NCBI RefSeq assembly: GCF_009914755.1
Contig: NC_060926.1
DNA: 64,000 bases
From: the human T2T-CHM13v2.0 reference genome, Homo sapiens
Strand: one strand, 5' to 3'
Notes under the pieces: generated by a model
Seen by the model: only the letters and a program-made list of their open reading frames with translations
Told to the model about the DNA's origin: nothing
Database searches by the model: none
Part shown: piece by piece, positions 4,421 through 60,213 of the stretch
How positions within the stretch are numbered: the first letter of the stretch is position 1
Layout: each line of letters begins with the position of its first letter
Translations under genes and position numbers: made by a program

Positions 4421-4910
<490 letters not shown>

Positions 4911-6164: not shown

Positions 6165-6912
<748 letters not shown>

Positions 6913-6914
6913 CC

Positions 6915-9869: not shown

Positions 9870-11535
<1,666 letters not shown>

Positions 11536-13357: not shown

Positions 13358-16300
13358 CCAAGCCAGCCAAGCCAGTCAGCCAAGCCAGCTAAGCCACCCA
13401 CCCAGCCAAGCCAGCCAAGTGAGCCAGCTAGCCAGCCAGCCAAGCCAGCCAAACCAGCCAAGCCAGCCAGCCAGCCAAGCCAGCCAAGCCTGCCAGCCAG
13501 CCAAGCCAGCCAAGCAAGCCAGCCAGCCAAGCCAGCCAGCCAGCCCAGGAGCCCCAGCCAGCCAGCCAATCCAAACAGCCAAGCCAGCCAAGCCAGCAAG
13601 CCAGCCAAGCAAGCCAAGCCTGCCAGCCAGCCAAGCCAGCCAAGCAAGCCAGCCAGCCAAGCCAGCCAGCCAGCCCAGGAGCCCCAGCCAGCCAGCCAAC
13701 CCAAACAGCCAAGCCAGCCAAGCCAGCCAGCCAGCCAAGCCAGCCAAGCCAGCCAGCCAGCCAAGCCAGCCAAGGCAGCCAAGCCAGCCAAGCCGGCCAG
13801 GCAGCCAAGCAAGCCAAGCCAGCCAGCCAGACAAGGCAGCCAAGCCAGCAGGCCAAGCGAGCCAAGCCAAGCCAGCCAAGCCAGCCAGTTAGCCAGCCAA
13901 GCCAGCCAAGCCAGCCAGCCAGCCAAGCCAGCCCAGCCAGCCAGCCAGCCAGCCGAGCCGGCCAAGCCAGACAGTGAGCCCAGCCAGCCCAGCCAGTCAG
14001 CCAGCCAAACCAGCCAGCCAGCCAAGCCGGCCAGCCACCCAGCAAAGCCAGCCAAGAGACCCAAGCCAGCCAGCAAAGCTGGCCAAACCAGCCAAGCCAG
14101 TCAGCCAAGCCAGCCAAGCCAGCCAAGCCGCCCAGCCAAGCCGCCCAGCCAGCCAAGCCAGCCAAGCCGCCCAGCTAACCAGGCCAGCCACCCAGCCAGT
14201 GAGCCAAGCCAGCCAAGCCAGCCAGGCAGCCAAGCCAGCCAAGCCAGCCAAGCCAGCCAGCCAGCCAGCCAAGCCAGGCATGCCAGCCAAGCCATCCAGT
14301 CAGCGACGCCAGCCGGCTAGCCAAGCCAGCCAAGCCACCCGGCCGGCCAAGCCAGCCAGCCAACACAGCCAAGCCAGCCAACCAGCCAAGACAGTCAGCT
14401 AGCCAAGCCAGCCAACCGGCCAGCCAGCCAAGCCGGCCGGCCTGCCAGCCAACCAAGCCAGCCAGACAGCCAAGGCAGCCAAGCCGGCCAGGCAGCCAAG
14501 CCAGCCAAGCCAAGGACCCAGCCAAGCCACCCAGCCAACCAAGACAGCCAAGCCAGCCAAACCAGCCTGCCAGCCAAGCCAGCCAAGCCATCCAGCCTGC
14601 CAAGCCAGCTGGCCAGCCAAGCTAGCCAATCCACTCACCCACTCAAGCCAGCCAAGTCACCCGGCCGGCCAAGCCAGCCAAGCCAGCCAGCCAGCCCAGA
14701 CAGCCAAGCCAGCCAGCCCAGACAGCCAAGCCAGCCAGCCAACCAAGCCAGCCAAGCCAGCCAAGCCACCCAGCCAGCCAAGCCAGCCAGCCAAACCAGC
14801 TGAGTCACCCAGCCAGCCAAGCCACCCAAGACAGCCAGCCAGCCAGCCAAGCCAGCCAAATAGCCAAGCCAGCCAAGCAAGCCATCAGCCAAGCCAGCCA
14901 AGCCTGCCAGCCAGCAGAGCCAGCCAACCAGCCAAGCCAGCCAGCCAGCCAAGCCAGCCAAGCCAGCCAGCCAGCCACTCAAGCCATCTAAGCAAACCAG
15001 CCAGCCAAGCCAGCCAAGCCACCGACCCAGCCAAGCCAGCCAACACACCCAGCCAGCCAAGCCAGCCAAGCCAGCCAAACCAGCCTGCCAGCCAAACCAG
15101 CCAAGCCATCCAGCCAGCCAAGCCAGTCAAGCCACCCAGCCAGCCAAGCCAGCCAAGCCACCCAGCCAGCCAAGCTGGCCAAGCCACTCAACCAGCCAAG
15201 CCAGCCAGCCACCCAAGCCAGCCAAGCCACTCAGCCAGCCAAGATGGCCAAGCCACCCAGTCAAGCCAGCTAAGCCAGCCAGGCAGCCAAGCCAGCCAAG
15301 TCAGCCAAGACCTCCAGCCAGCCAAGAAAGGCATGCCAGCCAAGACAGCCAGGCAGCCAAGCCAGCAAGCAAGCAAAGCCAGGCATGCCAGCCAAGCCAG
15401 CCAGGCAGCCAAGCCAGCCAAGCCAGCCAGCCAGCCAAGCCAGGCATGCCAGCCAAGCCATCCAGCCAGCCAAGCCAGCCGGCTAGCCAAGCCAGCCAAG
15501 CCACCCGGCCAGCCAAGCCAGCCAGCCAAGCCAGCCAAGCCAGCCAACCAGTCAAGCCAGTCAGCTAGCCAAGCCAGCCAAGCCACCCGGCCAGCCAAGC
15601 CAGCCAGCCAACCCAGTCAAGCCAGCCAACCAGCCAAGACATTCAGCTAGCCAAGCCAGCCAACCAGCCAGCCACTCAAGCTGGCCAACCTGCCAGCCAA
15701 CCAAGCCGGCCAGACAGCCAAGGCAGCCAAGCCGGCCAGGCAGCCAAGCCAGCCAAGCCACTGACCCAGCCAAGCCACTCAGCCAGCCAAGACAGCCAAG
15801 CCAGCCAAACCAGCCTGCCAGACAAGCCAGCCAAGCCAGCCAAGCCATCCAGCCTGCCAAGCCAGCTGGCCAGCCAAGCTAGACAATCCACTCACCCTCT
15901 CAAGCCAGCCAAGTCACCCGGCCAGCCAAGCCAGCCAAGCCAGCCAGCCAGCCCAGACAGCCAAGCCAGCCAGCCCAGAAAGCCAAGCCAGCCGGCCAGC
16001 CAAGCCAGCCAAGCCAGCCAAGCCAGCCAGCCAGCCAAGCCAGCCAAGCCACCCAGCCAGCCAAGCCAGCCAGCAAGCCAGCCAGACAGCCAAGCCAGCC
16101 AGCCACCCAGCCAGCCAGGCCAGCCAGTCACCCAGCCAGCCAAGCCAGCCAGCCATCCAGCCAGCCAGGTCAGCCTGCCACCCAGCCAGCCAAGACAGAC
16201 AAGCCAGCCAAGCCAGCCAGCCACCCAGCCAGCCAGGCCAGCCAGCCACCCAGCCAGCCCAGACAGCCAAGTCAGCCAGCCAGCCAAGGCAGCCAAGCCA

Positions 16301-17351
16301 GCCAACCAAACAAGAGAGCCAGCCAACCAAGCCAGCCAAGCCAGCCAGCTAGCCAAGCCACCCAGCCAGCCGGCCAGCCAAACCAGCCAAGCCACCCAGC
16401 CAGCCAAGCCAGCCAAGCCAATCAGCCAGCCAGGCAGACAGCCACCCAAGCCAGCCAAGCCAGCCAAGCCATCCAAGCCAGCCAGCCAGCCAGCCAGCCA
16501 AGCCAGCCAAGCCTCCCAGCCAGCCAAGCCAGCCAAGCCACCCAGCCAGCCAAGCCAGCCAAGCCACCTAGCCAGCCAGGCCCGCCAGCCAGCCAGCCAG
16601 CGAGCCAAGCCAGCCAAGCCTGCCAGCCTGCCAAGCCAGCCGGCCAGCCAAGCTACCCAATCCACTCAGCCACTCAAGCCAGCCAAGTCACCCGGCCATA
16701 TAAGCCAGCCAAGCCAGTCAGCCAGCCCAGACAGCCAAGCCAGCCAAGCCAGCCAAGCCAGCCAAGCCCGCCAACCAGCCAAGACAGGCATGCTAGCCAA
16801 GCCAGCCAGGCAGCCAAGCCAGCCAGGCAGCGAAGCCAGCCAAGCCAGCCAGCAAGCAAAGCCAGGCATGTCAGCCAAGCCAGCCAGGCAGCCAAGCCAG
16901 CCAAGCCAGCCAGCCAGCCAGGCCAGGCATACCAGCCAAGCCATCCAGCAAACTAAGCCAGCCGGCTAACCAAGCCAGCCAAGCCACCCAGCCAGCCAAG
17001 CCAGCCAGCCAAGCCAGCCAAGCCAGCCAAGCCAGCCAACCAGCCAAGCCAGCCAGCTAGCGAAGGTACCCAGCCAGCCAGCTAGCCAAACCAGCCAAGC
17101 CACCCAGCCAGCCAAGCCACCCAGCCAGCCAAGCCAGCCAAGCCAATCAGCCAGCCAGGCAGCCAGCCACCCAAGCCAGCCAAGCCAGCCAAGCCAGCCA
17201 AGCCAGCCAGCCAGCCAGCCGGCCAGCCAAGCCAGCCAAGCCTCCCAGCCAGCCAACCCAGCCAAGGCAGCCAGCCAGCCAAGCCAGCCAAGCCACCCAG
17301 CCATCCAAGCCAGCCAAGCCAGTCAGCCAGCCCAGACAGCCAAGCCAGCCA

Positions 17352-17384
<33 letters not shown>

Positions 17385-18760
17385 AGCCAGCCAGCCACCC
17401 AGCCAGCCAGCCAGCCAAGCCAGCCAGCCACCCAGCCAGCCAGGCCAGCCAGCCACCCAGCCAGCCAAGCCAGCCAGCCACCCAGCCAGCCAGGCCAGCC
17501 AGCCACCCAGCCAGCCAAGCCAGACAAGCCAGCCAAGCCAGCCAAGCCAGCCAGCCAGCCAGCCAGCCAAGCCAGCCAAGCCTCCCAGCCAGCCAAGCCT
17601 GCCAAGCCACCCAGCCAGCCAAGCCAGCCAAGCCAGTCAGCCAGCCCAGACAGCCAAGCCAGCCAAGCCAGCCAAGCCCGCCAACCAGCCAAGACAGGCA
17701 TGCTAGCCAAGCCAGCCAGGCAGCCAAGCCAGCCAGCAAGCAAAGCCAGGCATGCCAGCCAAGCCAGCCAACCAGCCAAGCCAGCCAGCTAGCCAAGCCA
17801 CCCAGCCAGCCAGCCAGCCAAACCAGCCAAGCCACCCAGCCAGCCAAGCCACCCAGCCAGCCAAGCCAGCCAAGCCAATCAGCCAGCCAGGCAGCCAGCC
17901 ACCCAGCCAGCCAAGCCAGCCAAGCCACCTAGCCAGCCAGGCCCGCCAGCCAGCCAGCCAGGCAGCCAAGCCAGCCAAGCCAGTCAAGCCCGCCAGCCAG
18001 CCAAGACAGGCATGCCAGCCAACCCAGCCAGGCAGCCAAGCCAGCCAAGCCAGCCAGCCAGCCAAGCCAGGCATGCCAGCCAAGCCATCCAGCTAGCTAA
18101 GCCAGCCAGCTAGCCAAGCCAGCCAAGCCACCCGGCCGGCAAAGCCAGCCAAGCCAGCCAACCAGCCAATCCAGCCAGCTAGCCAAGCCACCCAGCCAGC
18201 CAGCCAGCCAAACCAGCCAAGCCACCCAGCCAGCCAAGCCAGCCAAGACAGCCAGGCAGCCAGCCACCCAAGCCAGCCAAGCCAGCCAAGCCGGCCAAAC
18301 CAACCAACCAGCCAAGCCAGCCAGCCATCCAAGCCAGCCAAGACAGCCAGCCAGCCAAGCCAGTCAAGCCAGCCATACAGCCAAGCCAGCCAAGCCAGGC
18401 AAGCCACCCAGCCAGCCAAGCCATCTAGCCATCAAGCCAGTCAGGCCAGCCTGCCAGCCTGCCAAGCCGGCCACCCACCAAGCCAGCCAGCCATCCACGC
18501 CAGCCAAGCCAGTTAGCCAGCCAGCCAAGCCACCCAGCCAGCCAAGCCAGCCAAGCCACACAGCCAGCCAAGCCACCCAGCCAGCCAAGACAGCCAAGCC
18601 ACACAGCCAGCCAAGCCATCCAGCCAGCCAAGACAGCCAAGCCAGCCAAGCCATCCAGCCAGCCACACAAGCCAATCCAGCCAGCCAGCCAAGCAATCCA
18701 TGCCAGCCAAGCCATCCAGCCAGCCAAGCGAGGCGTCCGGCCAAGCCACCCCACCAGCCA

Positions 18761-18792
<32 letters not shown>

Positions 18793-18947
18793 CAGCCACC
18801 CAGCCAACTAAGCCAGCCAAGCCACCCAGCCAGGCATGCCAGCCAAGCCACCCAGCCAGCCAAGCCTGTCAGCCAGCAAACCAGCCAAGCCAGCCATGCC
18901 AGCCAGCCAGCCAAGCCATACAAGCCAGCCAGCCAGCCATGCCAGGA

Positions 18948-21723
<2,776 letters not shown>

Positions 21724-24700
21724 ACCAAGCCAGCCAAGCCAGCCAGCCAAGCCAGTCAAGCGACCCAGCCAGCCAGCCAGCCAGCTAAGCCACCCAACCA
21801 GCCAGCCTGCCAAGCCAGCCAAGCCAGCCAGCCAGCCAGCCAGCCAAGCCAGCCAAGTCAGCCAAGCCAGCTAGCCAGCCAAGCCAGCCAAGCCAGCCAG
21901 CCAGCCAGCCAGCAAAGCCACTCAGCCAGCCAGGCAGCCAAGCCAGCCAAGACAGCCAGCCAGCCAGCCAGCCAAGCCTGCCAAGCCAGCCAGCCAGCCA
22001 AGCCGGTGAAGCCACAAAGACAGCCAAGCCAGCCAAGACAGACAGCCAGCCAAGCCAGCCAAGCCAGCCAGCGAGCCAGTCAGCCAGACAGCCGGCAAGC
22101 CAAGCCACCCAACACAGCCAGCCAGCTAAGCCAGCGAAGGCAGCCAGCCAGCCAAGCCATCCAAGCCAGCCAGCCAGCCAAGCCAGCAAGCCAGCCAGTC
22201 AAGCCATCTAACCAGCCAGCCAGCCAGCCAGCCAGCCGGCCAGCCGAGCCAGACAGCCAGCGAAGCCAGCCAAGTCAGGGAGCCATCCAGCCAGGCAAGC
22301 CAGCCAAGCAAGCCAGCCAGCCAGCCAAGCCAGCCGAGCCAGTCAAGCTAGCCAGCCACCCAAGCCAGCCGAGCCAGTCAAGCTAGCCAGCCACCCAGCC
22401 AGCCAAGCCAGTAAAGCCTGCCAGCCAGCCAAGCCAGCCAAGCCAGGCAAGCCAGCCAGCCAGCCAAGCCAGGCAGCCAAGCCAGCCAAGCCAGCCAACC
22501 AGTCAAGCCAGTCAGCTAGCCAAGCCAGCCAAGCCACCCGGCCAGCCAAGCCAGCCAGCCAACCCAGTCAAGCCAGCCAACCAGCCAAGACATTCAGCTA
22601 GCCAAGCCGGCCAACCAGCCAGCCAGTCAAGCTGACCAGCCTGCCAGCCAACCAACCCGGCCAGACAGCCAAGGCAGCCAAGCCGGCCAGGCAGCCAAGC
22701 CAGCCAAGCCACTGACCCAGCCAAGCCACCCAGCCAGCCAAGCCAACAAGCCAGCCAAACCAGCCTGCCAGCCAAGCCAGCCAAGACATCCAGCCTGCCA
22801 AGCCAGCTGGCCAGCCAAGCTAGCCAATCCACTCACCCACTCAAGCCAGCCAAGTCACCCGGCCAGCCAAGCCAGCCAAGCCAGCCAGCCAGCCCAGACA
22901 GCCAAGCCAGCCAGCCTAGACAGCCAAGCCAGCCAGCCAGCCAAGCCAGCCGAGCCAGCCAAGCCACACAGCCAGCCAAGCCAGCCAGCAAGCCAGCCAG
23001 ACAGCCAAGCCAGCCAGCCACCCAGCCAGCCAGGCCAGCCAGCCACCCAGCCAGCCAAGCCAGCCAGCCATCCAGCCAGCCAGGCCAGCCTGCCACCCAG
23101 CCAGCCAAGACAGACAAGCCAGCCAAGCCAGCCAGCCACCCAGCAAGCCAGGCCAGCCAGCCACCCAGCCAGCCCAGACAGCCAAGTCAGCCAGCCAGCC
23201 AAGGCAGCCAAGCCAGCCAACCAAACAAGAGAGCCAGCCAACCAAGCCAGCCAAGCCAGCCAGCTAGCCAAGCCACCCAGCCAGCCGGCCAGCCAAACCA
23301 GCCAAGCCACCCAGCCAGCCAAGCCAGCCAAGCCAATCAGCCAGCCAGGCAGACAGCCACCCAAGCCAGCCAAGCCAGCCAAGCCATCCAAGCCAGCCAG
23401 CCAGCCAGCCAGCCAAGCCAGCCAAGCCTCCCAGCCAGCCAAGCCAGCCAAGCCACCCAGCCAGCCAAGCCAGCCAAGCCACCTAGCCAGCCAGGCCCGC
23501 CAGCCAGCCAGCCAGCGAGCCAAGCCAGCCAAGCCTGCCAGCCTGCCAAGCCAGCCGGCCAGCCAAGCTACCCAATCCACTCAGCCACTCAAGCCAGCCA
23601 AGTCACCCGGCCATATAAGCCAGCCAAGCCAGTCAGCCAGCCCAGACAGCCAAGCCAGCCAAGCCAGCCAAGCCAGCCAAGCCCGCCAACCAGCCAAGAC
23701 AGGCATGCTAGCCAAGCCAGCCAGGCAGCCAAGCCAGCCAGGCAGCGAAGCCAGCCAAGCCAGCCAGCAAGCAAAGCCAGGCATGTCAGCCAAGCCAGCC
23801 AGGCAGCCAAGCCAGCCAAGCCAGCCAGCCAGCCAGGCCAGGCATACCAGCCAAGCCATCCAGCCAACTAAGCCAGCCGGCTAACCAAGCCAGCCAAGCC
23901 ACCCAGCCAGCCAAGCCAGCCAGCCAAGCCAGCCAAGCCAGCCAAGCCAGCCAACCAGCCAAGCCAGCCAGCTAGCGAAGCTACCCAGCCAGCCAGCTAG
24001 CCAAACCAGCCAAGCCACCCAGCCAGCCAAGCCAGCCAAGCCACCCAGCCAGCCAAGCCAGCCAAGCCAATCAGCCAGCCAGGCAGCCAGCCACCCAAGC
24101 CAGCCAAGCCAGCCAAGCCAGCCAAGCCAGCCAGCCAGCCGGCCAGCCAAGCCAGCCAAGCCTCCCAGCCAGCCAACCCAGCCAAGGCAGCCAGCCAGCC
24201 AAGCCAGCCAAGCCACCCGGCCATCCAAGCCAGCCAAGCCAGTCAGCCAGCCCAGACAGCCAAGCCAGCCAAGCCAGCCAGCCAGCCAGCCAGCCAGCCA
24301 AGCCAGCCAGCCACCCAGCCAGCCAGCCAGCCAAGCCAGCCAGCCACCCAGCCAGCCAGGCCAGCCAGCCACCCAGCCAGCCAAGCCAGCCGGCCACCCA
24401 GCCAGCCAGCCAGCCAGCCAAGCCAGCCAGCCACCCAGCCAGCCAGCCAGCCAAGCCAGCCAGCCACCCAGCCAGCCAGGCCAGCCGGCCACCCAGCCAG
24501 CCAAGCCAGCCGGCCACCCAGCCAGCCAGGCCAGCCAGCCACCCAGCCAGCCAAGCCAGACAAGCCAGCCAAGCCAGCCAAGCCAGCCAGCCAGCCAGCC
24601 AGCCAAGCCAGCCAAGCCTCCCAGCCAGCCAAGCCTGCCAAGCCACCCAGCCAGCCAAGCCAGCCAAGCCAGTCAGCCAGCCCAGACAGCCAAGCCAGCC

Positions 24701-25796
24701 AAGCCAGCCAAGCCCGCCAACCAGCCAAGACAGGCATGCTAGCCAAGCCAGCCAGGCAGCCAAGCCAGCCAGCAAGCAAAGCCAGGCATGCCAGCCAAGC
24801 CAGCCAACCAGCCAAGCCAGCCAGCTAGCCAAGCCACCCAGCCAGCCAGCCAGCCAAACCAGCCAAGCCACCCAGCCAGCCAAGCCACCCAGCCAGCCAA
24901 GCCAGCCAAGCCAATCAGCCAGCCAGGCAGCCAGCCACCCAGCCAGCCAAGCCAGCCAAGCCACCTAGCCAGCCAGGCCCGCCAGCCAGCCAGCCAGGCA
25001 GCCAAGCCAGCCAAGCCAGTCAAGCCCGCCAGCCAGCCAAGACAGGCATGCCAGCCAACCCAGCCAGGCAGCCAAGCCAGCCAAGCCAGCCAGCCAGCCA
25101 AGCCAGGCATGCCAGCCAAGCCATCCAGCTAGCTAAGCCAGCCAGCTAGCCAAGCCAGCCAAGCCACCCGGCCGGCAAAGCCAGCCAAGCCAGCCAACCA
25201 GCCAAGCCAGCCAGCTAGCCAAGCCACCCAGCCAGCCAGCCAGCCAAACCAGCCAAGCCACCCAGCCAGCCAAGCCAGCCAAGACAGCCAGGCAGCCAGC
25301 CACCCAAGCCAGCCAAGCCAGCCAAGCCGGCCAAACCAACCAACCAGCCCAGCCAGCCAGCCATCCAAGCCAGCCAAGTCAGCCAGCCAGCCAAGCCAGT
25401 CAAGCCAGCCATACAGCCAAGCCAGCCAAGCCAGGCAAGCCACCCAGCCAGCCAAGCCATCTAGCCATCAAGCCAGTCAGGCCAGCCAGCCAGCCTGCCA
25501 AGCCGGCCACCCACCAAGCCAGCCAGCCATCCACGCCAGCCAAGCCAGTTAGCCAGCCAGCCAAGCCACCCAGCCAGCCAAGCCAGCCAAGCCACACAGC
25601 CAGCCAAGCCACCCAGCCAGCCAAGACAGCCAAGCCACACAGCCAGCCAAGCCATCCAGCCAGCCAAGACAGCCAAGCCAGCCAAGCCATCCAGCCAGCC
25701 ACACAAGCCAATCCAGCCAGCCAGCCAAGCAATCCATGCCAGCCAAGCCATCCAGCCAGCCAAGCGAGGCGTCCGGCCAAGCCACCCCACCAGCCA

Positions 25797-25828
<32 letters not shown>

Positions 25829-25983
25829 CAGCCACCCAGCCAACTAAGCCAGCCAAGCCACCCAGCCAGGCATGCCAGCCAAGCCACCCAGCCAGCCAAG
25901 CCTGTCAGCCAGCAAACCAGCCAAGCCAGCCATGCCAGCCAGCCAGCCAAGCCATACAAGCCAGCCAGCCAGCCATGCCAGGA

Positions 25984-28761
<2,778 letters not shown>

Positions 28762-32730: not shown

Positions 32731-32762
<32 letters not shown>

Positions 32763-32917
32763 CAGCCACCCAGCCAACTAAGCCAGCCAAGCCACCCAGC
32801 CAGGCATGCCAGCCAAGCCACCCAGCCAGCCAAGCCTGTCAGCCAGCAAACCAGCCAAGCCAGCCATGCCAGCCAGCCAGCCAAGCCATACAAGCCAGCC
32901 AGCCAGCCATGCCAGGA

Positions 32918-35693
<2,776 letters not shown>

Positions 35694-39620: not shown

Positions 39621-39652
<32 letters not shown>

Positions 39653-39807
39653 CAGCCACCCAGCCAACTAAGCCAGCCAAGCCACCCAGCCAGGCATGCC
39701 AGCCAAGCCACCCAGCCAGCCAAGCCTGTCAGCCAGCAAACCAGCCAAGCCAGCCATGCCAGCCAGCCAGCCAAGCCATACAAGCCAGCCAGCCAGCCAT
39801 GCCAGGA

Positions 39808-42584
<2,777 letters not shown>

Positions 42585-45500: not shown

Positions 45501-46711
45501 CCAGCAAGCAAAGCCAGGCATGCCAGCCAAGCAAGCCAACCAGCCCAGCCAGCCAGCTAGCCAAGCCACCCAGCCAGCCAGCCAGCCAAACCAGCCAAGC
45601 CACCCAGCCAGCCAAGCCACCCAGCCAGCCAAGCCAGCCAAGCCAATCAGCCAGCCAGGCAGCCAGCCACCCAGCCAGCCAAGCCAGCCAAGCCACCTAG
45701 CCAGCCAGGCCCACCAGCCAGCCAGCCAGGCAGCCAAGCCAGCCAAGCCAGTCAAGCCCGCCAGCCAGCCAAGACAGGCATGCCAGCCAACCCAGCCAGG
45801 CAGCCAAGCCAGCCAAGCCAGCCAGCCAGCCAAGCCAGGCATGCCAGCCAAGCCATCCAGCTAGCTAAGCCAGCCGGCTAGCCAAGCCAGCCAAGCCACC
45901 CGGCCGGCAAAGCCAGCCAAGCCAGCCAACCAGCCAAGCCAGCCAGCTAGCCAAGCCACCCAGCCAGCCAGCCAGCCAAACCAGCCAAGCCACCCAGCCA
46001 GCCAAGCCAGCCAAGACAGCCAGGCAGCCAGCCACCCAAGCCAGCCAAGCCAGCCAAGCCGGCCAAACCAACCAACCAGCCAAGCCAGCCAGCCATCCAA
46101 GCCAGCCAAGACAGCCAGCCAGCCAAGCCAGTCAAGCCAGCCATACAGCCAAGCCAGCCAAGCCAGGCAAGCCACCCAGCCAGCCAAGCCATCTAGCCAT
46201 CAAGCCAGTCAGGCCAGCCAGCCAGCCTGCCAAGCCGGCCACCCACCAAGCCAGCCAGCCATCCACGCCAGCCAAGCCAGTTAGCCAGCCAGCCAAGCCA
46301 CCCAGCCAGCCAAGCCAGCCAAGCCACACAGCCAGCCAAGCCACCCAGCCAGCCAAGACAGCCAAGCCACACAGCCAGCCAAGCCATCCAGCCAGCCAAG
46401 ACAGCCAAGCCAGCCAAGCCATCCAGCCAGCCACGCAAGCCAATCCAGCCAGCCAGCCAAGCAATCCATGCCAGCCAAGCCATCCAGCCAGCCAAGCGAG
46501 GCGTCCGGCCAAGCCACCCCACCAGCCAAGCCAGCCAGCCGGCCAGCCAGCCAGCCCAGCCACCCAGCCAACTAAGCCAGCCAAGCCACCCAGCCAGGCA
46601 TGCCAGCCAAGCCACCCAGCCAGCCAAGCCTGTCAGCCAGCAAACCAGCCAAGCCAGCCATGCCAGCCAGCCAGCCAAGCCATACAAGCCAGCCAGCCAG
46701 CCATGCCAGGA

Positions 46712-49485
<2,774 letters not shown>

Positions 49486-52400
49486 ACCAAGCCAGCCAAG
49501 CCAGCCAGCCAAGCCAGTCAAGCGACCCAGCCAGCCAGCCAGCCAGCTAAGCCACCCAACCAGCCAGCCTGCCAAGCCAGCCAAGCCAGCCAGCCAGCCA
49601 GCCAGCCAAGCCAGCCAAGTCAGCCAAGCCAGCTAGCCAGCCAAGCCAGCCAAGCCAGCCAGCCAGCCAGCCAGCAAAGCCACTCAGCCAGCCAGGCAGC
49701 CAAGCCAGCCAAGACAGCCAGCCAGCCAGCCAGCCAAGCCTGCCAAGCCAGCCAGCCAGCCAAGCCGGTGAAGCCACAAAGACAGCCAAGCCAGCCAAGA
49801 CAGACAGCCAGCCAAGCCAGCCAAGCCAGCCAGCGAGCCAGTCAGCCAGACAGCCGGCAAGCCAAGCCACCCAACACAGCCAGCCAGCTAAGCCAGCGAA
49901 GGCAGCCAGCCAGCCAAGCCATCCAAGCCAGCCAGCCAGCCAAGCCAGCAAGCCAGCCAGTCAAGCCATCTAACCAGCCAGCCAGCCAGCCAGCCAGCCG
50001 GCCAGCCGAGCCAGACAGCCAGCGAAGCCAGCCAAGTCAGGGAGCCATCCAGCCAGGCAAGCCAGCCAAGCAAGCCAGCCAGCCAGCCAAGCCAGCCGAG
50101 CCAGTCAAGCTAGCCAGCCACCCAAGCCAGCCGAGCCAGTCAAGCTAGCCAGCCACCCAGCCAGCCAAGCCAGTAAAGCCTGCCAGCCAGCCAAGCCAGC
50201 CAAGCCAGGCAAGCCAGCCAGCCAGCCAAGCCAGGCAGCCAAGCCAGCCAAGCCAGCCAACCAGTCAAGCCAGTCAGCTAGCCAAGCCAGCCAAGCCACC
50301 CGGCCAGCCAAGCCAGCCAGCCAACCCAGTCAAGCCAGCCAACCAGCCAAGACATTCAGCTAGCCAAGCCGGCCAACCAGCCAGCCAGTCAAGCTGACCA
50401 GCCTGCCAGCCAACCAACCCGGCCAGACAGCCAAGGCAGCCAAGCCGGCCAGGCAGCCAAGCCAGCCAAGCCACTGACCCAGCCAAGCCACCCAGCCAGC
50501 CAAGCCAACAAGCCAGCCAAACCAGCCTGCCAGCCAAGCCAGCCAAGACATCCAGCCTGCCAAGCCAGCTGGCCAGCCAAGCTAGCCAATCCACTCACCC
50601 ACTCAAGCCAGCCAAGTCACCCGGCCAGCCAAGCCAGCCAAGCCAGCCAGCCAGCCCAGACAGCCAAGCCAGCCAGCCTAGACAGCCAAGCCAGCCAGCC
50701 AGCCAAGCCAGCCGAGCCAGCCAAGCCACACAGCCAGCCAAGCCAGCCAGCAAGCCAGCCAGACAGCCAAGCCAGCCAGCCACCCAGCCAGCCAGGCCAG
50801 CCAGCCACCCAGCCAGCCAAGCCAGCCAGCCATCCAGCCAGCCAGGCCAGCCTGCCACCCAGCCAGCCAAGACAGACAAGCCAGCCAAGCCAGCCAGCCA
50901 CCCAGCAAGCCAGGCCAGCCAGCCACCCAGCCAGCCCAGACAGCCAAGTCAGCCAGCCAGCCAAGGCAGCCAAGCCAGCCAACCAAACAAGAGAGCCAGC
51001 CAACCAAGCCAGCCAAGCCAGCCAGCTAGCCAAGCCACCCAGCCAGCCGGCCAGCCAAACCAGCCAAGCCACCCAGCCAGCCAAGCCAGCCAAGCCAATC
51101 AGCCAGCCAGGCAGACAGCCACCCAAGCCAGCCAAGCCAGCCAAGCCATCCAAGCCAGCCAGCCAGCCAGCCAGCCAAGCCAGCCAAGCCTCCCAGCCAG
51201 CCAAGCCAGCCAAGCCACCCAGCCAGCCAAGCCAGCCAAGCCACCTAGCCAGCCAGGCCCGCCAGCCAGCCAGCCAGCGAGCCAAGCCAGCCAAGCCTGC
51301 CAGCCTGCCAAGCCAGCCGGCCAGCCAAGCTACCCAATCCACTCAGCCACTCAAGCCAGCCAAGTCACCCGGCCATATAAGCCAGCCAAGCCAGTCAGCC
51401 AGCCCAGACAGCCAAGCCAGCCAAGCCAGCCAAGCCAGCCAAGCCCGCCAACCAGCCAAGACAGGCATGCTAGCCAAGCCAGCCAGGCAGCCAAGCCAGC
51501 CAGGCAGCGAAGCCAGCCAAGCCAGCCAGCAAGCAAAGCCAGGCATGTCAGCCAAGCCAGCCAGGCAGCCAAGCCAGCCAAACCAGCCAGCCAGCCAGGC
51601 CAGGCATACCAGCCAAGCCATCCAGCCAACTAAGCCAGCCGGCTAACCAAGCCAGCCAAGCCACCCAGCCAGCCAAGCCAGCCAGCCAAGCCAGCCAAGC
51701 CAGCCAAGCCAGCCAACCAGCCAAGCCAGCCAGCTAGCGAAGCTACCCAGCCAGCCAGCTAGCCAAACCAGCCAAGCCACCCAGCCAGCCAAGCCACCCA
51801 GCCAGCCAAGCCAGCCAAGCCAATCAGCCAGCCAGGCAGCCAGCCACCCAAGCCAGCCAAGCCAGCCAAGCCAGCCAAGCCAGCCAGCCAGCCGGCCAGC
51901 CAAGCCAGCCAAGCCTCCCAGCCAGCCAACCCAGCCAAGGCAGCCAGCCAGCCAAGCCAGCCAAGCCACCCGGCCATCCAAGCCAGCCAAGCCAGTCAGC
52001 CAGCCCAGACAGCCAAGCCAGCCAAGCCAGCCAGCCAGCCAGCCAGCCAGCCAAGCCAGCCAGCCACCCAGCCAGCCAGCCAGCCAAGCCAGCCAGCCAC
52101 CCAGCCAGCCAGGCCAGCCAGCCACCCAGCCAGCCAAGCCAGCCAGCCACCCAGCCAGCCAGGCCAGCCAGCCACCCAGCCAGCCAAGCCAGACAAGCCA
52201 GCCAAGCCAGCCAAGCCAGCCAGCCAGCCAGCCAGCCAAGCCAGCCAAGCCTCCCAGCCAGCCAAGCCTGCCAAGCCACCCAGCCAGCCAAGCCAGTCAG
52301 CCAGCCCAGACAGCCAAGCCAGCCAAGCCAGCCAAGCCCGCCAACCAGCCAAGACAGGCATGCTAGCCAAGCCAGCCAGGCAGCCAAGCCAGCCAGCAAG

Positions 52401-53466
52401 CAAAGCCAGGCATGCCAGCCAAGCCAGCCAACCAGCCCAGCCAGCCAGCTAGCCAAGCCACCCAGCCAGCCAGCCAGCCAAACCAGCCAAGCCACCCAGC
52501 CAGCCAAGCCACCCAGCCAGCCAAGCCAGCCAAGCCAATCAGCCAGCCAGGCAGCCAAGCCAGCCAAGCCAGCCAGCCAGCCAAGCCAGGCATGCCAGCC
52601 AAGCCATCCAGCTAGCTAAGCCAGCCGGCTAGCCAAGCCAGCCAAGCCACCCGGCCGGCAAAGCCAGCCAAGCCAGCCAACCAGCCAAGCCAGCCAGCTA
52701 GCCAAGCCACCCAGCCAGCCAGCCAGCCAAACCAGCCAAGCCACCCAGCCAGCCAAGCCAGCCAAGACAGCCAGGCAGCCAGCCACCCAAGCCAGCCAAG
52801 CCAGCCAAGCCGGCCAAACCAACCAACCAGCCAAGCCAGCCAGCCATCCAAGCCAGCCAAGACAGCCAGCCAGCCAAGCCAGTCAAGCCAGCCATACAGC
52901 CAAGCCAGCCAAGCCAGGCAAGCCACCCAGCCAGCCAAGCCATCTAGCCATCAAGCCAGTCAGGCCAGCCAGCCAGCCTGCCAAGCCGGCCACCCACCAA
53001 GCCAGCCAGCCATCCACGCCAGCCAAGCCAGTTAGCCAGCCAGCCAAGCCACCCAGCCAGCCAAGCCAGCCAAGCCACACAGCCAGCCAAGCCACCCAGC
53101 CAGCCAAGACAGCCAAGCCACACAGCCAGCCAAGCCATCCAGCCAGCCAAGACAGCCAAGCCAGCCAAGCCATCCAGCCAGCCACACAAGCCAATCCAGC
53201 CAGCCAGCCAAGCAATCCATGCCAGCCAAGCCATCCAGCCAGCCAAGCGAGGCGTCCGGCCAAGCCACCCCACCAGCCAAGCCAGCCAGCCGGCCAGCCA
53301 GCCAGCCAGCCCAGCCACCCAGCCAACTAAGCCAGCCAAGCCACCCAGCCAGGCATGCCAGCCAAGCCACCCAGCCAGCCAAGCCTGTCAGCCAGCAAAC
53401 CAGCCAAGCCAGCCATGCCAGCCAGCCAGCCAAGCCATACAAGCCAGCCAGCCAGCCATGCCAGGA

Positions 53467-56241
<2,775 letters not shown>

Positions 56242-59200
56242 ACCAAGCCAGCCAAGCCAGCCAGCCAAGCCAGTCAAGCGACCCAGCCAGCCAGCCAGCC
56301 AGCTAAGCCACCCAACCAGCCAGCCTGCCAAGCCAGCCAAGCCAGCCAGCCAGCCAGCCAGCCAAGCCAGCCAAGTCAGCCAAGCCAGCTAGCCAGCCAA
56401 GCCAGCCAAGCCAGCCAGCCAGCCAGCCAGCAAAGCCACTCAGCCAGCCAGGCAGCCAAGCCAGCCAAGACAGCCAGCCAGCCAGCCAGCCAAGCCTGCC
56501 AAGCCAGCCAGCCAGCCAAGCCGGTGAAGCCACAAAGACAGCCAAGCCAGCCAAGACAGACAGCCAGCCAAGCCAGCCAAGCCAGCCAGCGAGCCAGTCA
56601 GCCAGACAGCCGGCAAGCCAAGCCACCCAACACAGCCAGCCAGCTAAGCCAGCGAAGGCAGCCAGCCAGCCAAGCCATCCAAGCCAGCCAGCCAGCCAAG
56701 CCAGCAAGCCAGCCAGTCAAGCCATCTAACCAGCCAGCCAGCCAGCCAGCCAGCCGGCCAGCCGAGCCAGACAGCCAGCGAAGCCAGCCAAGTCAGGGAG
56801 CCATCCAGCCAGGCAAGCCAGCCAAGCAAGCCAGCCAGCCAGCCAAGCCAGCCGAGCCAGTCAAGCTAGCCAGCCACCCAAGCCAGCCGAGCCAGTCAAG
56901 CTAGCCAGCCACCCAGCCAGCCAAGCCAGTAAAGCCTGCCAGCCAGCCAAGCCAGCCAAGCCAGGCAAGCCAGCCAGCCAGCCAAGCCAGGCAGCCAAGC
57001 CAGCCAAGCCAGCCAACCAGTCAAGCCAGTCAGCTAGCCAAGCCAGCCAAGCCACCCGGCCAGCCAAGCCAGCCAGCCAACCCAGTCAAGCCAGCCAACC
57101 AGCCAAGACATTCAGCTAGCCAAGCCGGCCAACCAGCCAGCCAGTCAAGCTGACCAGCCTGCCAGCCAACCAACCCGGCCAGACAGCCAAGGCAGCCAAG
57201 CCGGCCAGGCAGCCAAGCCAGCCAAGCCACTGACCCAGCCAAGCCACCCAGCCAGCCAAGCCAACAAGCCAGCCAAACCAGCCTGCCAGCCAAGCCAGCC
57301 AAGACATCCAGCCTGCCAAGCCAGCTGGCCAGCCAAGCTAGCCAATCCACTCACCCACTCAAGCCAGCCAAGTCACCCGGCCAGCCAAGCCAGCCAAGCC
57401 AGCCAGCCAGCCCAGACAGCCAAGCCAGCCAGCCTAGACAGCCAAGCCAGCCAGCCAGCCAAGCCAGCCGAGCCAGCCAAGCCACACAGCCAGCCAAGCC
57501 AGCCAGCAAGCCAGCCAGACAGCCAAGCCAGCCAGCCACCCAGCCAGCCAGGCCAGCCAGCCACCCAGCCAGCCAAGCCAGCCAGCCATCCAGCCAGCCA
57601 GGCCAGCCTGCCACCCAGCCAGCCAAGACAGACAAGCCAGCCAAGCCAGCCAGCCACCCAGCAAGCCAGGCCAGCCAGCCACCCAGCCAGCCCAGACAGC
57701 CAAGTCAGCCAGCCAGCCAAGGCAGCCAAGCCAGCCAACCAAACAAGAGAGCCAGCCAACCAAGCCAGCCAAGCCAGCCAGCTAGCCAAGCCACCCAGCC
57801 AGCCGGCCAGCCAAACCAGCCAAGCCACCCAGCCAGCCAAGCCAGCCAAGCCAATCAGCCAGCCAGGCAGACAGCCACCCAAGCCAGCCAAGCCAGCCAA
57901 GCCATCCAAGCCAGCCAGCCAGCCAGCCAGCCAAGCCAGCCAAGCCTCCCAGCCAGCCAAGCCAGCCAAGCCACCCAGCCAGCCAAGCCAGCCAAGCCAC
58001 CTAGCCAGCCAGGCCCGCCAGCCAGCCAGCCAGCGAGCCAAGCCAGCCAAGCCTGCCAGCCTGCCAAGCCAGCCGGCCAGCCAAGCTACCCAATCCACTC
58101 AGCCACTCAAGCCAGCCAAGTCACCCGGCCATATAAGCCAGCCAAGCCAGTCAGCCAGCCCAGACAGCCAAGCCAGCCAAGCCAGCCAAGCCAGCCAAGC
58201 CCGCCAACCAGCCAAGACAGGCATGCTAGCCAAGCCAGCCAGGCAGCCAAGCCAGCCAGGCAGCGAAGCCAGCCAAGCCAGCCAGCAAGCAAAGCCAGGC
58301 ATGTCAGCCAAGCCAGCCAGGCAGCCAAGCCAGCCAAACCAGCCAGCCAGCCAGGCCAGGCATACCAGCCAAGCCATCCAGCCAACTAAGCCAGCCGGCT
58401 AACCAAGCCAGCCAAGCCACCCAGCCAGCCAAGCCAGCCAGCCAAGCCAGCCAAGCCAGCCAAGCCAGCCAGCTAGCGAAGCTACCCAGCCAGCCAGCTA
58501 GCCAAACCAGCCAAGCCACCCAGCCAGCCAAGCCACCCAGCCAGCCAAGCCAGCCAAGCCAATCAGCCAGCCAGGCAGCCAGCCACCCAAGCCAGCCAAG
58601 CCAGCCAAGCCAGCCAAGCCAGCCAGCCAGCCGGCCAGCCAAGCCAGCCAAGCCTCCCAGCCAGCCAACCCAGCCAAGGCAGCCAGCCAGCCAAGCCAGC
58701 CAGCCAGCCGGCCAGCCAAGCCAGCCAAGCCTCCCAGCTAGCCAACCCAGCCAAGGCAGCCAGCCAGCCAAGCCAGCCAAGCCACCCGGCCATCCAAGCC
58801 AGCCAAGCCAGTCAGCCAGCCCAGACAGCCAAGCCAGCCAAGCCAGCCAGCCAGCCAGCCAGCCAGCCAAGCCAGCCAGCCACCCAGCCAGCCAGCCAGC
58901 CAAGCCAGCCAGCTACCCAGCCAGCCAGGCCAGCCAGCCACCCAGCCAGCCAAGCCAGCCAGCCACCCAGCCAGCCAGGCCAGCCAGCCACCCAGCCAGC
59001 CAAGCCAGACAAGCCAGCCAAGCCAGCCAAGCCAGCCAGCCAGCCAGTCAGCCAAGCCAGCCAAGCCTCCCAGCCAGCCAAGCCTGCCAAGCCACCCAGC
59101 CAGCCAAGCCAGCCAAGCCAGTCAGCCAGCCCAGACAGCCAAGCCAGCCAAGCCAGCCAAGCCCGCCAACCAGCCAAGACAGGCATGCTAGCCAAGCCAG

Positions 59201-60213
59201 CCAGGCAGCCAAGCCAGCCAGCAAGCAAAGCCAGGCATGCCAGCCAAGCCAGCCAACCAGCCCAGCCAGCCAGCTAGCCAAGCCACCCAGCCAGCCAGCC
59301 AGCCAAACCAGCCAAGCCACCCAGCCAGCCAAGCCACCCAGCCAGCCAAGCCAGCCAAGCCAATCAGCCAGCCAGGCAGCCAGCCACCCAGCCAGCCAAG
59401 CCAGCCAAGCCACCTAGCCAGCCAGGCCCACCAGCCAGCCAGCCAGGCAGCCAAGCCAGCCAAGCCAGTCAAGCCCGCCAGCCAGCCAAGACAGGCATGC
59501 CAGCCAACCCAGCCAGGCAGCCAAGCCAGCCAAGCCAGCCAGCCAGCCAAGCCAGGCATGCCAGCCAAGCCATCCAGCTAGCTAAGCCAGCCGGCTAGCC
59601 AAGCCAGCCAAGCCACCCGGCCGGCAAAGCCAGCCAAGCCAGCCAACCAGCCAAGCCAGCCAGCTAGCCAAGCCACCCAGCCAGCCAGCCAGCCAAACCA
59701 GCCAAGCCACCCAGCCAGCCAAGCCAGCCAAGACAGCCAGGCAGCCAGCCACCCAAGCCAGCCAAGCCAGCCAAGCCGGCCAAACCAACCAACCAGCCAA
59801 GCCAGCCAGCCATCCAAGCCAGCCAAGACAGCCAGCCAGCCAAGCCAGTCAAGCCAGCCATACAGCCAAGCCAGCCAAGCCAGGCAAGCCACCCAGCCAG
59901 CCAAGCCATCTAGCCATCAAGCCAGTCAGGCCAGCCAGCCAGCCTGCCAAGCCGGCCACCCACCAAGCCAGCCAGCCATCCACGCCAGCCAAGCCAGTTA
60001 GCCAGCCAGCCAAGCCACCCAGCCAGCCAAGCCAGCCAAGCCACACAGCCAGCCAAGCCACCCAGCCAGCCAAGACAGCCAAGCCACACAGCCAGCCAAG
60101 CCATCCAGCCAGCCAAGACAGCCAAGCCAGCCAAGCCATCCAGCCAGCCACACAAGCCAATCCAGCCAGCCAGCCAAGCAATCCATGCCAGCCAAGCCAT
60201 CCAGCCAGCCAAG

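What the first reader, a model, noticed from the sequence alone, without database searches (positions are those of the whole stretch)
15525..60213. Hierarchical Alu/GCCAGCCAA composite macrosatellite (~6.9-kb unit, six Alu blocks)
Seen: three repeat scales are nested. (i) 4/5-bp GCCA/GCCAA words; (ii) ~220-280-bp Alu monomers that differ visibly from each other; (iii) ~6.9-kb units that differ only by scattered SNVs and a few indels. Established: divergent monomers inside homogeneous multimers is the architecture of alpha-satellite higher-order repeats, and Alu-containing satellites exist (DYZ2/HSat1B carries an Alu fragment). Inference: this is a recently amplified, probably copy-number-variable macrosatellite built from a SINE array. 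A masker would report it only as about 66 separate Alus plus simple repeat. I do not recognise it as a named family but cannot exclude that it is annotated.
Basis: partly seen in the sequence, partly recalled or inferred. Interest (0 to 1): 0.85.

Follow-up and report, generated by a model that had tools for sequence, protein, structure and literature searches.

The report
Alu-plus-(CAGC)n composite tandem repeat
A real, young six-copy tandem repeat near the human chromosome 2 centromere, with each 6.9-kb unit made of ten tandem copies of one truncated Alu plus 4 kb of (CAGC)n simple sequence; it is a tidy example of how satellites arise, but of a kind already known.

Summary
Window 18949-60213 holds six ~6.9-kb units, 99.80-99.97% alike over the five whole units compared. 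Each unit has a 2.77-kb Alu block and ~4.1 kb of degenerate GCCA/GCCAA, which is (CAGC)n.

The interpretation needs correcting in four ways.
- The "66 Alus" are not a SINE array. Each block is ten head-to-tail copies of one 5'-truncated Alu (80-90% alike, same start point) plus one true full-length Alu insertion.
- The simple repeat sits inside a monomer, at its CCAGCCTGG motif.
- The module "(CAGC)n - Alu block - (CAGC)n" is old. It lies in a pericentromeric segmental-duplication family on chr2, chr15 and chr22, with (CAGC)n alone on chr1 and chr16. A PAR1 relative of the flanks has neither part.
- CHM13 has two more, older blocks just past the window, so the whole complex spans ~66 kb.

The spacers are chimeras of the right-hand and left-hand (CAGC)n tracts. 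This points to out-of-register exchange between those tracts as the amplifying step.

Large (CAGC)n arrays at 2p11.2 and 22q11 were already in print in 2008. Composite macrosatellites are a defined T2T category. I could not check whether this unit is in the T2T composite track. Copy-number variation is untested. Interest is modest.

The parts
12765..13357 (.). AT-rich 26-bp minisatellite. It is the left boundary of the complex and belongs to the duplicated left flank.
   Evidence: TRF finds period 26. The sequence switches to CCAAGCCAGCC at 13358. The same flank is found at 98% identity on chr2 and chr1, 95% on chr15, and 90% in PAR1.
13358..18948 (+). Left (CAGC)n tract of 5591 bp. From about 15485 onward it is homologous to the inter-block spacers, so it acts as a partial unit.
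   Evidence: TRF gives periods 4, 17 and 26. Its right 2.5 kb is 99.0-99.6% identical to spacers S1 and S2. Homology falls to 93% by about tract position 2128.
18949..21720 (+). Alu block 1. It holds 10 truncated-Alu monomers and one full-length Alu insert at 19755-20049.
21721..25984 (+). Spacer 1, degenerate (CAGC)n, 4264 bp.
25985..28758 (+). Alu block 2. Monomer starts: M1 26014, M2 26240, M3 26462, M4 26735, M5 27258, M6 27531, M7 27812, M8 28082, M9 28351, M10 28580. The tail of the interrupted monomer M10 lies at 25985-26013. The full-length Alu insert is at 26791-27085.
   Evidence: Ten sub-threshold Metazoa_SRP matches on the + strand cover 8 of the 10 monomers, plus two over the insert and M4.
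28759..32918 (+). Spacer 2, degenerate (CAGC)n, 4160 bp.
32919..35690 (+). Alu block 3, with the insert at 33725-34020.
35691..39808 (+). Spacer 3, 4118 bp.
39809..42581 (+). Alu block 4, with the insert at 40616-40911.
42582..46712 (+). Spacer 4, 4131 bp.
46713..49482 (+). Alu block 5, with the insert at 47518-47812.
49483..53467 (+). Spacer 5, 3985 bp.
53468..56238 (+). Alu block 6, with the insert at 54274-54568.
56239..60213 (+). Sixth spacer copy. This is the end of the young array.
   Evidence: Positions 1-3975 of the tract after block 6 match spacers S1, S2 and S5 at 99-100% in pieces, with gaps between the pieces.
60214..64000 (+). (CAGC)n belonging to the older neighbouring pair of units. 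It continues past the window to block 7 at chr2:90896035.
   Evidence: Positions 3963-9796 of this tract are 99.9% identical to the spacer between blocks 7 and 8. Blocks 7 and 8 were located.

Best explanation
This is non-coding structural DNA: a young, locally amplified composite tandem repeat that grew in tiers from one Alu. Each step below is marked as shown or inferred.

1. Shown: a segment whose flanks are about 90% identical to a PAR1 segment was copied into pericentromeric duplications. Inferred: PAR1 represents the ancestral state. There the site holds 2.78 kb of other sequence ending in one + strand Alu with an (AAAG)n tail.
2. Shown: a 5'-truncated piece of an Alu, running from about GACCAGCCTGGCCAAC to the A-tail, became a head-to-tail minisatellite. 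It has 5 to about 30 monomers depending on the paralogue and 10 here. Five of the ten monomers carry a 48-bp duplication of the Alu 3' end.
3. Shown: a degenerate (CAGC)n = GCCA/GCCAA tract sits inside one monomer, between CCAGCCTGG and CGAGACTCC. Inferred: it grew out of that motif.
4. Shown: a full-length Alu retrotransposed into monomer 4 before the chr2 copies separated.
5. Shown: the module "(CAGC)n - Alu block - (CAGC)n" spread by segmental duplication.
6. The spacer structure is shown; the mechanism is inferred from it. Here, out-of-register exchange between the kilobase-long (CAGC)n tracts right and left of a block duplicated "block + 4 kb". Further unequal exchange raised it to six units, now 99.8-100% alike.

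No function is indicated. The likely consequences are copy-number change and a substrate for further ectopic exchange and duplication breakpoints.
For: UNITS AND JUNCTIONS
- See for unit boundaries, junction strings and monomer counts.

TANDEM ORIGIN OF THE MONOMERS (NOT RETROTRANSPOSITION)
- 10 of 10 monomers begin at the same column, 82, of an alignment with the full-length insert.
- They share GGAGGCCCAGGCAGGAGGATC and GCCAAGATTGCACCA against the insert's versions.
- They are 79.8-89.7% identical to each other but 77.8-82.2% identical to the insert.
- 8 of the 10 monomers give sub-threshold SRP-RNA matches, all on the + strand. Two further matches lie over the insert and M4.

MONOMER NUMBER VARIES AMONG PARALOGUES
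- 24 at chr2:87.41 Mb.
- About 30 at chr2:91.70 Mb.
- 10 at chr2:89.76 Mb, chr2:89.94 Mb and in blocks 7 and 8.
- 5 at chr22:17.24 Mb.

THE MODULE IS OLD
- (CAGC)n flanks the Alu block at every block-bearing paralogue fetched.
- The junction strings are conserved within 4 edits or fewer in 5 of 6 paralogues tested. The chr15 copy failed.

PAR1
- The flanks are collinear at about 90%. The 2.78 kb between them is replaced here by about 66 kb.
- PAR1 has no (CAGC)n and no monomer array. It has a + strand Alu directly before the (AAAG)n tail and the shared GCAAATGTACACTGCT.

THE SPACER IS A CHIMERA
- Its first ~350 bp match the start of the right-hand tract of the single-copy chr2:89.76 paralogue (94%).
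- From about position 716 onward it matches the left-hand tract (93-99.6%).
- Its last 567 bp match that paralogue's left tract end at 98%.

KB-SCALE DUPLICATION IS A PROPERTY OF THE TRACT ITSELF
- A pure (CAGC)n array on chr1 has a 3855-bp super-period. Ungapped identity is 93.5% at that lag and 63% or less at the other lags tested. It has 0 Alu-monomer hits.

ARRAY PATTERN
- Edge units B1 and B6 keep the outgroup base at block alignment sites 1704 and/or 1909, while the inner units share derived bases.

STRAND ASYMMETRY
- The G/T-rich strand folds to -20.5 kcal/mol (z = -3.4). The C-rich strand folds to -3.9 kcal/mol (z = +2.7), for 120 nt as DNA.
Against: - Only one assembly was seen. There was no read-level, population or ape evidence, so recency, human specificity and copy-number variation all rest on identity alone.
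- Gene conversion could keep an older array homogeneous.
- That the (CAGC)n was born from the Alu motif is inferred from where it sits. The chr1 copies (3 loci) and the chr16 copy carry (CAGC)n without any Alu block, so the tract could be the older part.
- The PAR1 Alu is not measurably closer to the monomers than other Alus are. Its nhmmer score is 184, against 123-194 for unrelated Alus in the window.
- Rooted trees leave the order of the three lineages unresolved, with 83-84% support. The lineages are blocks 1-6, blocks 7-8, and the chr2:89.76/89.94 copies.
- The exchange point in the spacer is bracketed only to positions 352-716.
- Alignments inside a degenerate simple repeat are not unique.
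Confidence: 0.8

Rival explanations
1. The block is a cluster of about 11 independent Alu retrotranspositions (a true SINE array) that was later duplicated.
For: Every piece is Alu-derived and has an A-rich tail. One piece per block really is a full-length insertion lying in an A-rich target.
Against: - 10 of 10 monomers share one 5' truncation point, one orientation and derived substitutions.
- They abut head-to-tail with nothing between them.
- Monomer number differs between paralogues (5, 10, 24, about 30) in the manner of a minisatellite.
Confidence: 0.03
2. The six-unit array is an assembly artefact, that is, over-expansion of a single block in T2T-CHM13.
For: The region is highly repetitive and pericentromeric. 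No reads were available to me.
Against: - The units are not identical. There are 13 variable alignment sites among the blocks.
- Spacer lengths run from 3985 to 4264 bp, with unit-specific indels.
- Variants follow a neighbour-similarity gradient.
Confidence: 0.04
3. The array is old and kept uniform by gene conversion or concerted evolution, rather than recently amplified.
For: - Blocks 7 and 8 next door are 1.3-1.4% diverged from blocks 1-6 (35-39 of about 2772 sites), so tandem copies have existed here for a long time.
- Edge units retaining ancestral bases is also what homogenisation predicts.
Against: - Homogenisation would have to stop sharply at window 60213.
- The spacers, which are hard to convert in register, are as similar as the blocks (99.76-99.95%).
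Confidence: 0.12
4. The (CAGC)n tract came first as a pericentromeric simple-sequence satellite, and the Alu minisatellite is a passenger that landed or grew inside it. In this reading the Alu is not the tract's source.
For: - chr1 (3 loci, 16-26 kb tracts) and chr16 carry the tract with no Alu block.
- On chr16 the tract is itself the edge of the duplicated segment.
Against: - The tract is bounded on both sides by the two halves of one Alu monomer: CCAGCCTGG before it and GACGAGACTCCATCTCAAAA after it.
- The far right end of the whole complex abuts GCCAGCTGG plus the purine tail, where PAR1 has an Alu 3' end.
- Both repeat words (CCAGCC, GCCAA) pre-exist in the Alu at CCAGCCTGGCCAAC.
- The chr1 flanks are 98% identical to the flanks here, while the chr15 flanks, whose copy has the Alu block, are 95%. 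Loss on chr1 is therefore the simpler reading.
Confidence: 0.25
5. The array is a functional element, for example a regulatory or chromatin-organising macrosatellite of the DXZ4 or D4Z4 type, or a source of Alu-like RNA.
For: - RefSeq lists an "enhancer" at 13306-14075 on the left edge (hub annotation, not tested).
- Each monomer keeps an SRP-like fold signal, below threshold.
Against: - No gene is annotated here.
- The monomers lack the Alu left arm, which carries the pol III A and B boxes (established knowledge).
- The stop-free frames of up to 461 codons are what a 3%-T strand gives by composition.
- Paralogues differ freely in monomer number, and chr1 lacks the block altogether.
Confidence: 0.05

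Closest known systems
Large diverged (CAGC)n simple-sequence arrays at 2p11.2 and 22q11 (Warburton et al. 2008, BMC Genomics 9:533, PMC2588610; passages read)
   Same: The motif and the TRF periods (4, 9, 17, 26) are the same. The listed loci fit the paralogues found here at chr2:87.4 Mb and chr22:17.2 Mb. That paper also notes kb-scale higher-order repeats inside "simple sequence" arrays in general, as seen here on chr1.
   Different: That paper lists them only as simple sequence. The passages found by my term search mention no embedded Alu minisatellite, no 6.9-kb unit and no link to a duplication family. Its table of arrays with units over 2 kb gave no 2p11 hit in that search.
T2T-CHM13 "composite" repeats (Hoyt et al., preprint 10.1101/2021.07.12.451456; passages read), especially 5SRNA_Comp
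   Same: [quoted passage not shown] The history matches 5SRNA_Comp, where single modules were scattered by segmental duplication near centromeres and one copy was amplified locally to near-100% identity.
   Different: There are only 6 (+2) units here, against 128 for 5SRNA_Comp. No gene or RNA gene lies in the unit. Most of the unit is simple repeat. I could not check whether it is one of the 19 listed composites, or the source of that paper's "AluJb fragment" entry, because Table S2 was closed.
[quoted passage not shown]
   Same: It is a satellite whose kb-scale unit joins simple or low-complexity sequence to an Alu-derived part.
   Different: HSat1B is AT-rich with one Alu fragment per unit and lies almost entirely on the Y in very high copy. 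Here the simple part is GC-rich (CAGC)n, the Alu part is itself a 10-mer minisatellite, and the copy number is single-digit. No sequence comparison was possible because no HSat1B reference was at hand.
Alpha-satellite higher-order repeats
   Same: Monomers are 80-90% alike while multimers are over 99.8% alike. Edge units are more ancestral than central ones.
   Different: The monomers make up only about 40% of the unit. They are Alu-derived, 222-281 bp. There is no evidence of any centromere role. The homology that drives amplification appears to be the (CAGC)n tract, not the monomers.

Membership tests
Composite repeat in the sense of Hoyt et al. (T2T) | [quoted passage not shown] | tested here: met
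   The unit holds an Alu-derived minisatellite, a full-length Alu insertion and a (CAGC)n tract. The definition is quoted.
Composite repeat in the sense of Hoyt et al. (T2T) | Units are arranged head-to-tail in a tandem array. | tested here: met
   Six units lie in register with periods of 6755-7036 bp. Two older units follow.
Composite repeat in the sense of Hoyt et al. (T2T) | Listed among the 19 curated composites or present in the CHM13 composite track. | not testable with these tools
The published version is not held. The main text names only some composites.
Macrosatellite / megasatellite (VNTR with kb-scale unit) | Unit of at least about 2 kb with high identity between units. | tested here: met
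   The unit is 6.9 kb and units are 99.80-99.97% identical.
Macrosatellite / megasatellite (VNTR with kb-scale unit) | Copy number is polymorphic between individuals. | not testable with these tools
   Only one human assembly is held. No reads or pangenome were available.
Alu SINE insertions (retrotransposed copies) | Derived from 7SL/SRP RNA. | tested here: met
   There are 10 sub-threshold Metazoa_SRP matches on the + strand (24.7-58.1 bits, gathering score 70). The monomers align to the full-length insert.
Alu SINE insertions (retrotransposed copies) | Each copy is an independent insertion with its own truncation point, its own flanks and target-site duplications. | tested here: not met
   All 10 of 10 monomers share one start point and abut head-to-tail. 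Only the insert at 26791-27085 (and its copy in each other block) behaves as an insertion.
Diverged (CAGC)n simple-sequence arrays (Warburton 2008) | (CAGC)n-based sequence with TRF periods 4, 9, 17 and 26, in arrays over 10 kb at 2p11.2 / 22q11. | tested here: met
   About 44 kb of the 66-kb complex is this repeat. A 28-mer of it has 562 exact genomic matches, against 0 for the reversed control. No single uninterrupted tract here exceeds 10 kb; the longest is 9796 bp.
Alpha-satellite-type higher-order repeat | The whole unit is built from divergent monomers of one family. | tested here: not met
   About 60% of each unit is (CAGC)n, not monomers.

The most novel reading that the evidence does not exclude
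This could be an uncatalogued, human-specific and copy-number-variable composite macrosatellite in which a single Alu gave rise to both a minisatellite and a (CAGC)n satellite. The kilobase-long (CAGC)n tracts would then act as recurrent substrates for unequal exchange and as junctions of the duplications that scattered the kappa-orphon segments over chr1, 2, 15, 16 and 22. That would make it a natural time series of satellite birth from a SINE.
Probability: 0.3. Interest if true: 0.5.

Novelty: new member of a known kind. Interest (0 to 1): 0.3.

Why it matters
The value is mainly as a clean worked example. One locus and its paralogues show successive stages:
- a single Alu in PAR1;
- Alu minisatellites of 5 to about 30 monomers;
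- a (CAGC)n tract growing at an Alu motif;
- dispersal by segmental duplication;
- a very young kb-scale amplification whose spacer still shows the exchange point.

It also flags (CAGC)n tracts as likely hotspots for rearrangement next to the IGK locus. Practically, it marks about 66 kb where short-read mapping, variant calls and gene-finder open frames should not be trusted. It does not open a new class of element.

Tried and rejected
The published version is not held under its DOI or under a PMC id that I recalled. So the composite list could not be read.
- Nine literature searches were run. One search was a mistyped term, corrected. They found no description of this 6.9-kb unit. The only relevant item was Warburton 2008 on (CAGC)n.
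- Gluncic and Paar 2012 (PMC3592446, passages read) concerns ordinary two-Alu tandems on chr7, not this array.
- Subfamily assignment (AluJ, S or Y) was not attempted.
- The idea that the PAR1 Alu is recognisably the founder by sequence was rejected. Its similarity score is no better than that of unrelated Alus. Only its position supports the idea.
- The idea that blocks 1-6 are sister to the chr2:89.76/89.94 copies came from raw distances. It did not survive outgroup rooting, which gives a trichotomy with 83-84% support.
- The open frames of up to 461 codons and the sub-threshold mir-3135 and mir-1268 hits were dismissed as compositional or Alu-derived artefacts.
Those tracts were seen only at their ends.
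Full report
WHAT IS THERE

The window is T2T-CHM13 chr2:90830001-90894000. Tandem Repeats Finder shows a regular alternation from 13358 to the end of the window. Long tracts with periods 4, 9, 17 and 26 (consensus AGCC / CCAAGCCAG) alternate with blocks holding Alu-like periods of 164-274 bp. Composition follows the same rhythm. The tracts are 64-70% G+C with AT skew of +0.77 to +0.91, so they have almost no T. The blocks are about 50% G+C.

Two exact junction strings each recur six times.
- They define six Alu blocks of 2770-2774 bp.
- They define five spacers of 3985-4264 bp.
- Periods are 7036, 6934, 6890, 6904 and 6755 bp.

The five whole units differ pairwise by 2-14 substitutions in about 6.8 kb (99.80-99.97%) and by 4-8 indel events. 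The six blocks differ by 0-5 substitutions, and blocks 2 and 3 are identical at every aligned base. The tract after block 6 matches the spacers for 3975 bp, which ends at 60213. The left tract begins to match the spacers at about 15485.

THE ALU BLOCKS ARE A MINISATELLITE, NOT A SINE CLUSTER

Each block holds ten monomers in 6 of 6 blocks, with spacings of 226, 222, 273, 523, 273, about 279, 270, 269 and 229 bp. I aligned them with the one full-length Alu that sits inside monomer 4.
- All ten monomers start at the same Alu position, column 82, at about GACCAGCCTGGCCAACATGG.
- All run to an A-rich tail and abut the next monomer directly.
- All share bases that the insert lacks.
- They are 79.8-89.7% identical to each other and 77.8-82.2% identical to the insert.
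- Five monomers (M3, M5-M8) carry a 48-bp duplication of the Alu 3' end.

Rfam gives ten sub-threshold SRP-RNA matches, all on the + strand. They cover 8 of the 10 monomers, plus two over the insert and M4. This is independent support for Alu ancestry.

The insert is a genuine secondary retrotransposition into the A-rich linker of monomer 4. It lies at 26791-27085 in block 2, with the same 295-296 bp in every block.

WHERE THE SIMPLE REPEAT SITS

At the 3' end of every block the sequence reads ...GCACTCCAGCCTGG and then runs into CAAACCAAGCCAGCC... At the 5' end of every block the tract ends ...GCCATGCCAG and is followed by GACGAGACTCCATCTCAAAA. In an intact monomer these two halves are contiguous, as CCAGCCTGGGCAACAGAGCGAGACTCC. 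The tract is therefore an expansion inside monomer 10.

Both words of the repeat (CCAGCC, GCCAA) already exist in the Alu at CCAGCCTGGCCAAC. That the tract grew from this motif is an inference.

The tract is degenerate.
- 45% is exact GCCA or GCCAA words.
- Common variants include GCCACCCA.
- T makes up 2.9%.

As single-stranded DNA its G/T-rich strand folds well (-20.5 kcal/mol, z = -3.4) and its C-rich strand does not (-3.9 kcal/mol, z = +2.7). This fits a slippage-prone sequence but proves nothing.

THE WIDER LOCUS AND ITS RELATIVES

Searching the same assembly with one block found two more blocks just beyond the window, at 98% identity (chr2:90896035 and chr2:90903825). It also found the following paralogues.
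- Single blocks at chr2:89757804 (+) and chr2:89940838 (-), at 97%.
- Larger relatives at chr2:87.407-87.413 Mb (+) and chr2:91.699-91.707 Mb (-).
- Weaker ones at chr15:18.00 Mb and 19.56 Mb, and at chr22:17.24 Mb.

At every block-bearing paralogue fetched, (CAGC)n lies on both sides of the block. The two junction strings are kept within four edits or fewer in 5 of 6 paralogues tested. A monomer profile counts about 24 monomers at 87.41 Mb, about 30 at 91.70 Mb, 10 at 89.76 Mb and 89.94 Mb and in blocks 7 and 8, and 5 on chr22. The four chr2 loci and blocks 7 and 8 also carry the same insert.

The whole complex here runs from the AT-rich 26-bp minisatellite at 13357/13358 to a (GGAA)n tract at chr2:90909290. 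That is about 66 kb, with 8 blocks and about 44 kb of (CAGC)n.

Both flanks are duplicated segments.
- The left flank recurs at 98% on chr2 (3 loci) and chr1 (3 loci), and at 95% at a fourth chr2 locus (chr2:89.72 Mb) and on chr15 (2 loci). It recurs at 93% at chr22:22.66 Mb and at 90% in PAR1 of X and Y.
- The right flank recurs on chr2, at chr16:34.78 Mb (89%) and in PAR1 (91%).

In PAR1 the two flanks are 2.78 kb apart. There is no (CAGC)n and no monomer array there. A single + strand Alu with an (AAAG)n tail lies directly before the shared right-flank sequence.

The chr1 copies carry 16-26 kb of pure (CAGC)n with no Alu block. On chr16 the tract starts abruptly against unrelated sequence, so the edge of the duplicated segment lies in the tract. 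A 28-mer of the tract has 562 exact matches in the genome, against none for its reversed control.

HOW THE 6.9-KB UNIT AROSE

I compared the spacer with the single-copy chr2:89.76 paralogue and with the tracts at this locus.
- Its first ~350 bp match the beginning of a right-hand tract (94%).
- From about position 716 it matches the left-hand tract (93% rising to 99.6%).
- Its last 567 bp match the paralogue's left-tract end at 98%.

A spacer that is "start of right tract + end of left tract" is what an out-of-register exchange between the two tracts flanking one block would leave. The exchange point is bracketed to spacer positions 352-716.

The neighbouring pair, blocks 7 and 8, has a different period and a different spacer. 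Its spacer is 5024 bp and is 99.9% identical to the tract before block 7. So the same kind of event happened more than once.

A pure (CAGC)n array at chr1:143186501-143194500 has a 3855-bp super-period. Ungapped identity is 93.5% at that lag and 63% or less at the other lags tested. It has no Alu monomer. Kilobase-scale duplication is thus a habit of the tract, and the Alu block looks like a passenger.

Within blocks 1-6 the edge units keep the outgroup base at alignment sites 1704 and/or 1909, and the inner units share derived bases. This is the pattern expected from unequal exchange.

AGES (INFERENCE)

The measured distances are as follows.
- Blocks 1-6 differ from one another by 0-0.18%.
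- Blocks 7 and 8 differ from each other by 0.25%.
- Blocks 1-6 differ from blocks 7-8 by 1.3-1.4%.
- Blocks 1-6 differ from the chr2:89.76/89.94 copies by about 1.0%.

Trees rooted with the 87.41 and 91.70 Mb copies leave the order of these three lineages unresolved. My yardstick is the roughly 1.2% human-chimpanzee divergence, which is recalled and not computed here. On that basis the first duplication is about as old as that split, and the six-unit amplification is far younger, perhaps a million years or less. This holds only if gene conversion has not erased differences. No ape or population data were available, so "human-specific" and "copy-number variable" remain untested.

COMPARISON WITH WHAT IS KNOWN

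The simple repeat is in print. Warburton et al. 2008 list "CAGC" arrays of 25.7 kb at 2p11.2 and 10.2 kb at 22q11.1 with periods 4, 9, 17 and 26. They also remark on higher-order repeats inside "simple sequence" arrays (passages read).

Composite tandem units built of TEs and simple repeats are a defined T2T category. 5SRNA_Comp shows the same history of dispersal followed by local amplification (passages read). The same preprint mentions a new "AluJb fragment" repeat entry. That entry might be this monomer, but I could not check. HSat1B is another satellite that joins low-complexity sequence to an Alu fragment (passage read).

Nine literature searches found no description of this 6.9-kb unit. 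The one table that would settle whether T2T already lists it was closed.

VERDICT

It is best filed as a further member of the known class of composite macrosatellites, sitting in a known (CAGC)n-bearing pericentromeric duplication family. The "SINE array" reading is wrong in mechanism. Recency is supported by identity only. Variability and novelty of annotation remain open. No function is indicated.

Noticed in passing
L030 (chr2-unlinked: chr1:143186501-143194500); 28-mer hits at chr1:142.33, 143.17-143.20 and 143.96-143.98 Mb: The pure (CAGC)n arrays on chr1 have no Alu block but show a 3855-bp higher-order period. Ungapped identity is 93.5% at that lag and 63% or less at the other lags tested. 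No Alu-monomer hits were found.
   Followed up: partly
L020 5500-9000 (chrX:685500-689000, PAR1; same on chrY): A PAR1 segment is about 90% identical to both flanks of the complex but has neither (CAGC)n nor the Alu minisatellite. Instead it holds 2.78 kb ending in one + strand Alu with an (AAAG)n tail. It may be the ancestral state.
   Followed up: partly
L025 4650-4700 (chr16:34776650-34776700): On chr16 the (CAGC)n tract begins abruptly against unrelated GC-rich sequence. The edge of the duplicated segment therefore lies inside the simple repeat.
   Followed up: no
L016 3231-9343 (chr2:87.407-87.413 Mb) and L017 1106-8651 (chr2:91.699-91.707 Mb, minus strand): These paralogous Alu minisatellites have about 24 and about 30 monomers, against 10 here. 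They carry the same full-length Alu insert in the fourth monomer.
   Followed up: partly
L028 and L026 (chr2:89725001-89735000 and 90006001-90016000): Both 10-kb samples are entirely (CAGC)n. Given the positions of the flank and the block, the tracts there could be about 33 kb and about 73 kb long.
   Followed up: partly
window 13306-14075: The RefSeq "enhancer" feature given by the hub straddles the junction between the AT-rich minisatellite and the start of the (CAGC)n tract. It was not evaluated.
   Followed up: no
window 3525-4309: A 159-bp unit is repeated about 5 times at 87% identity. The sequence looks LINE-1-derived, but that is from recall and was not tested.
   Followed up: no
window 10528-11071: A 276-bp unit is repeated twice (87% identity) in the duplicated left flank.
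   Followed up: no
window 28729-32995, mainly + strand: Stop-free frames of up to 461 codons run through the (CAGC)n tract. This is a by-product of a strand with 3% T, and a gene finder could be misled by it.
   Followed up: yes
window 26135-28532, minus strand: Nine sub-threshold matches to the mir-3135 model lie on the minus strand (33.8-54.9 bits, gathering score 80). One sub-threshold match to mir-1268 (34 bits, gathering score 83) lies on the + strand at 26924-26975. All fall on the Alu monomers or the insert. I read these as Alu-derived models hitting Alu sequence, not as miRNA genes.
   Followed up: no
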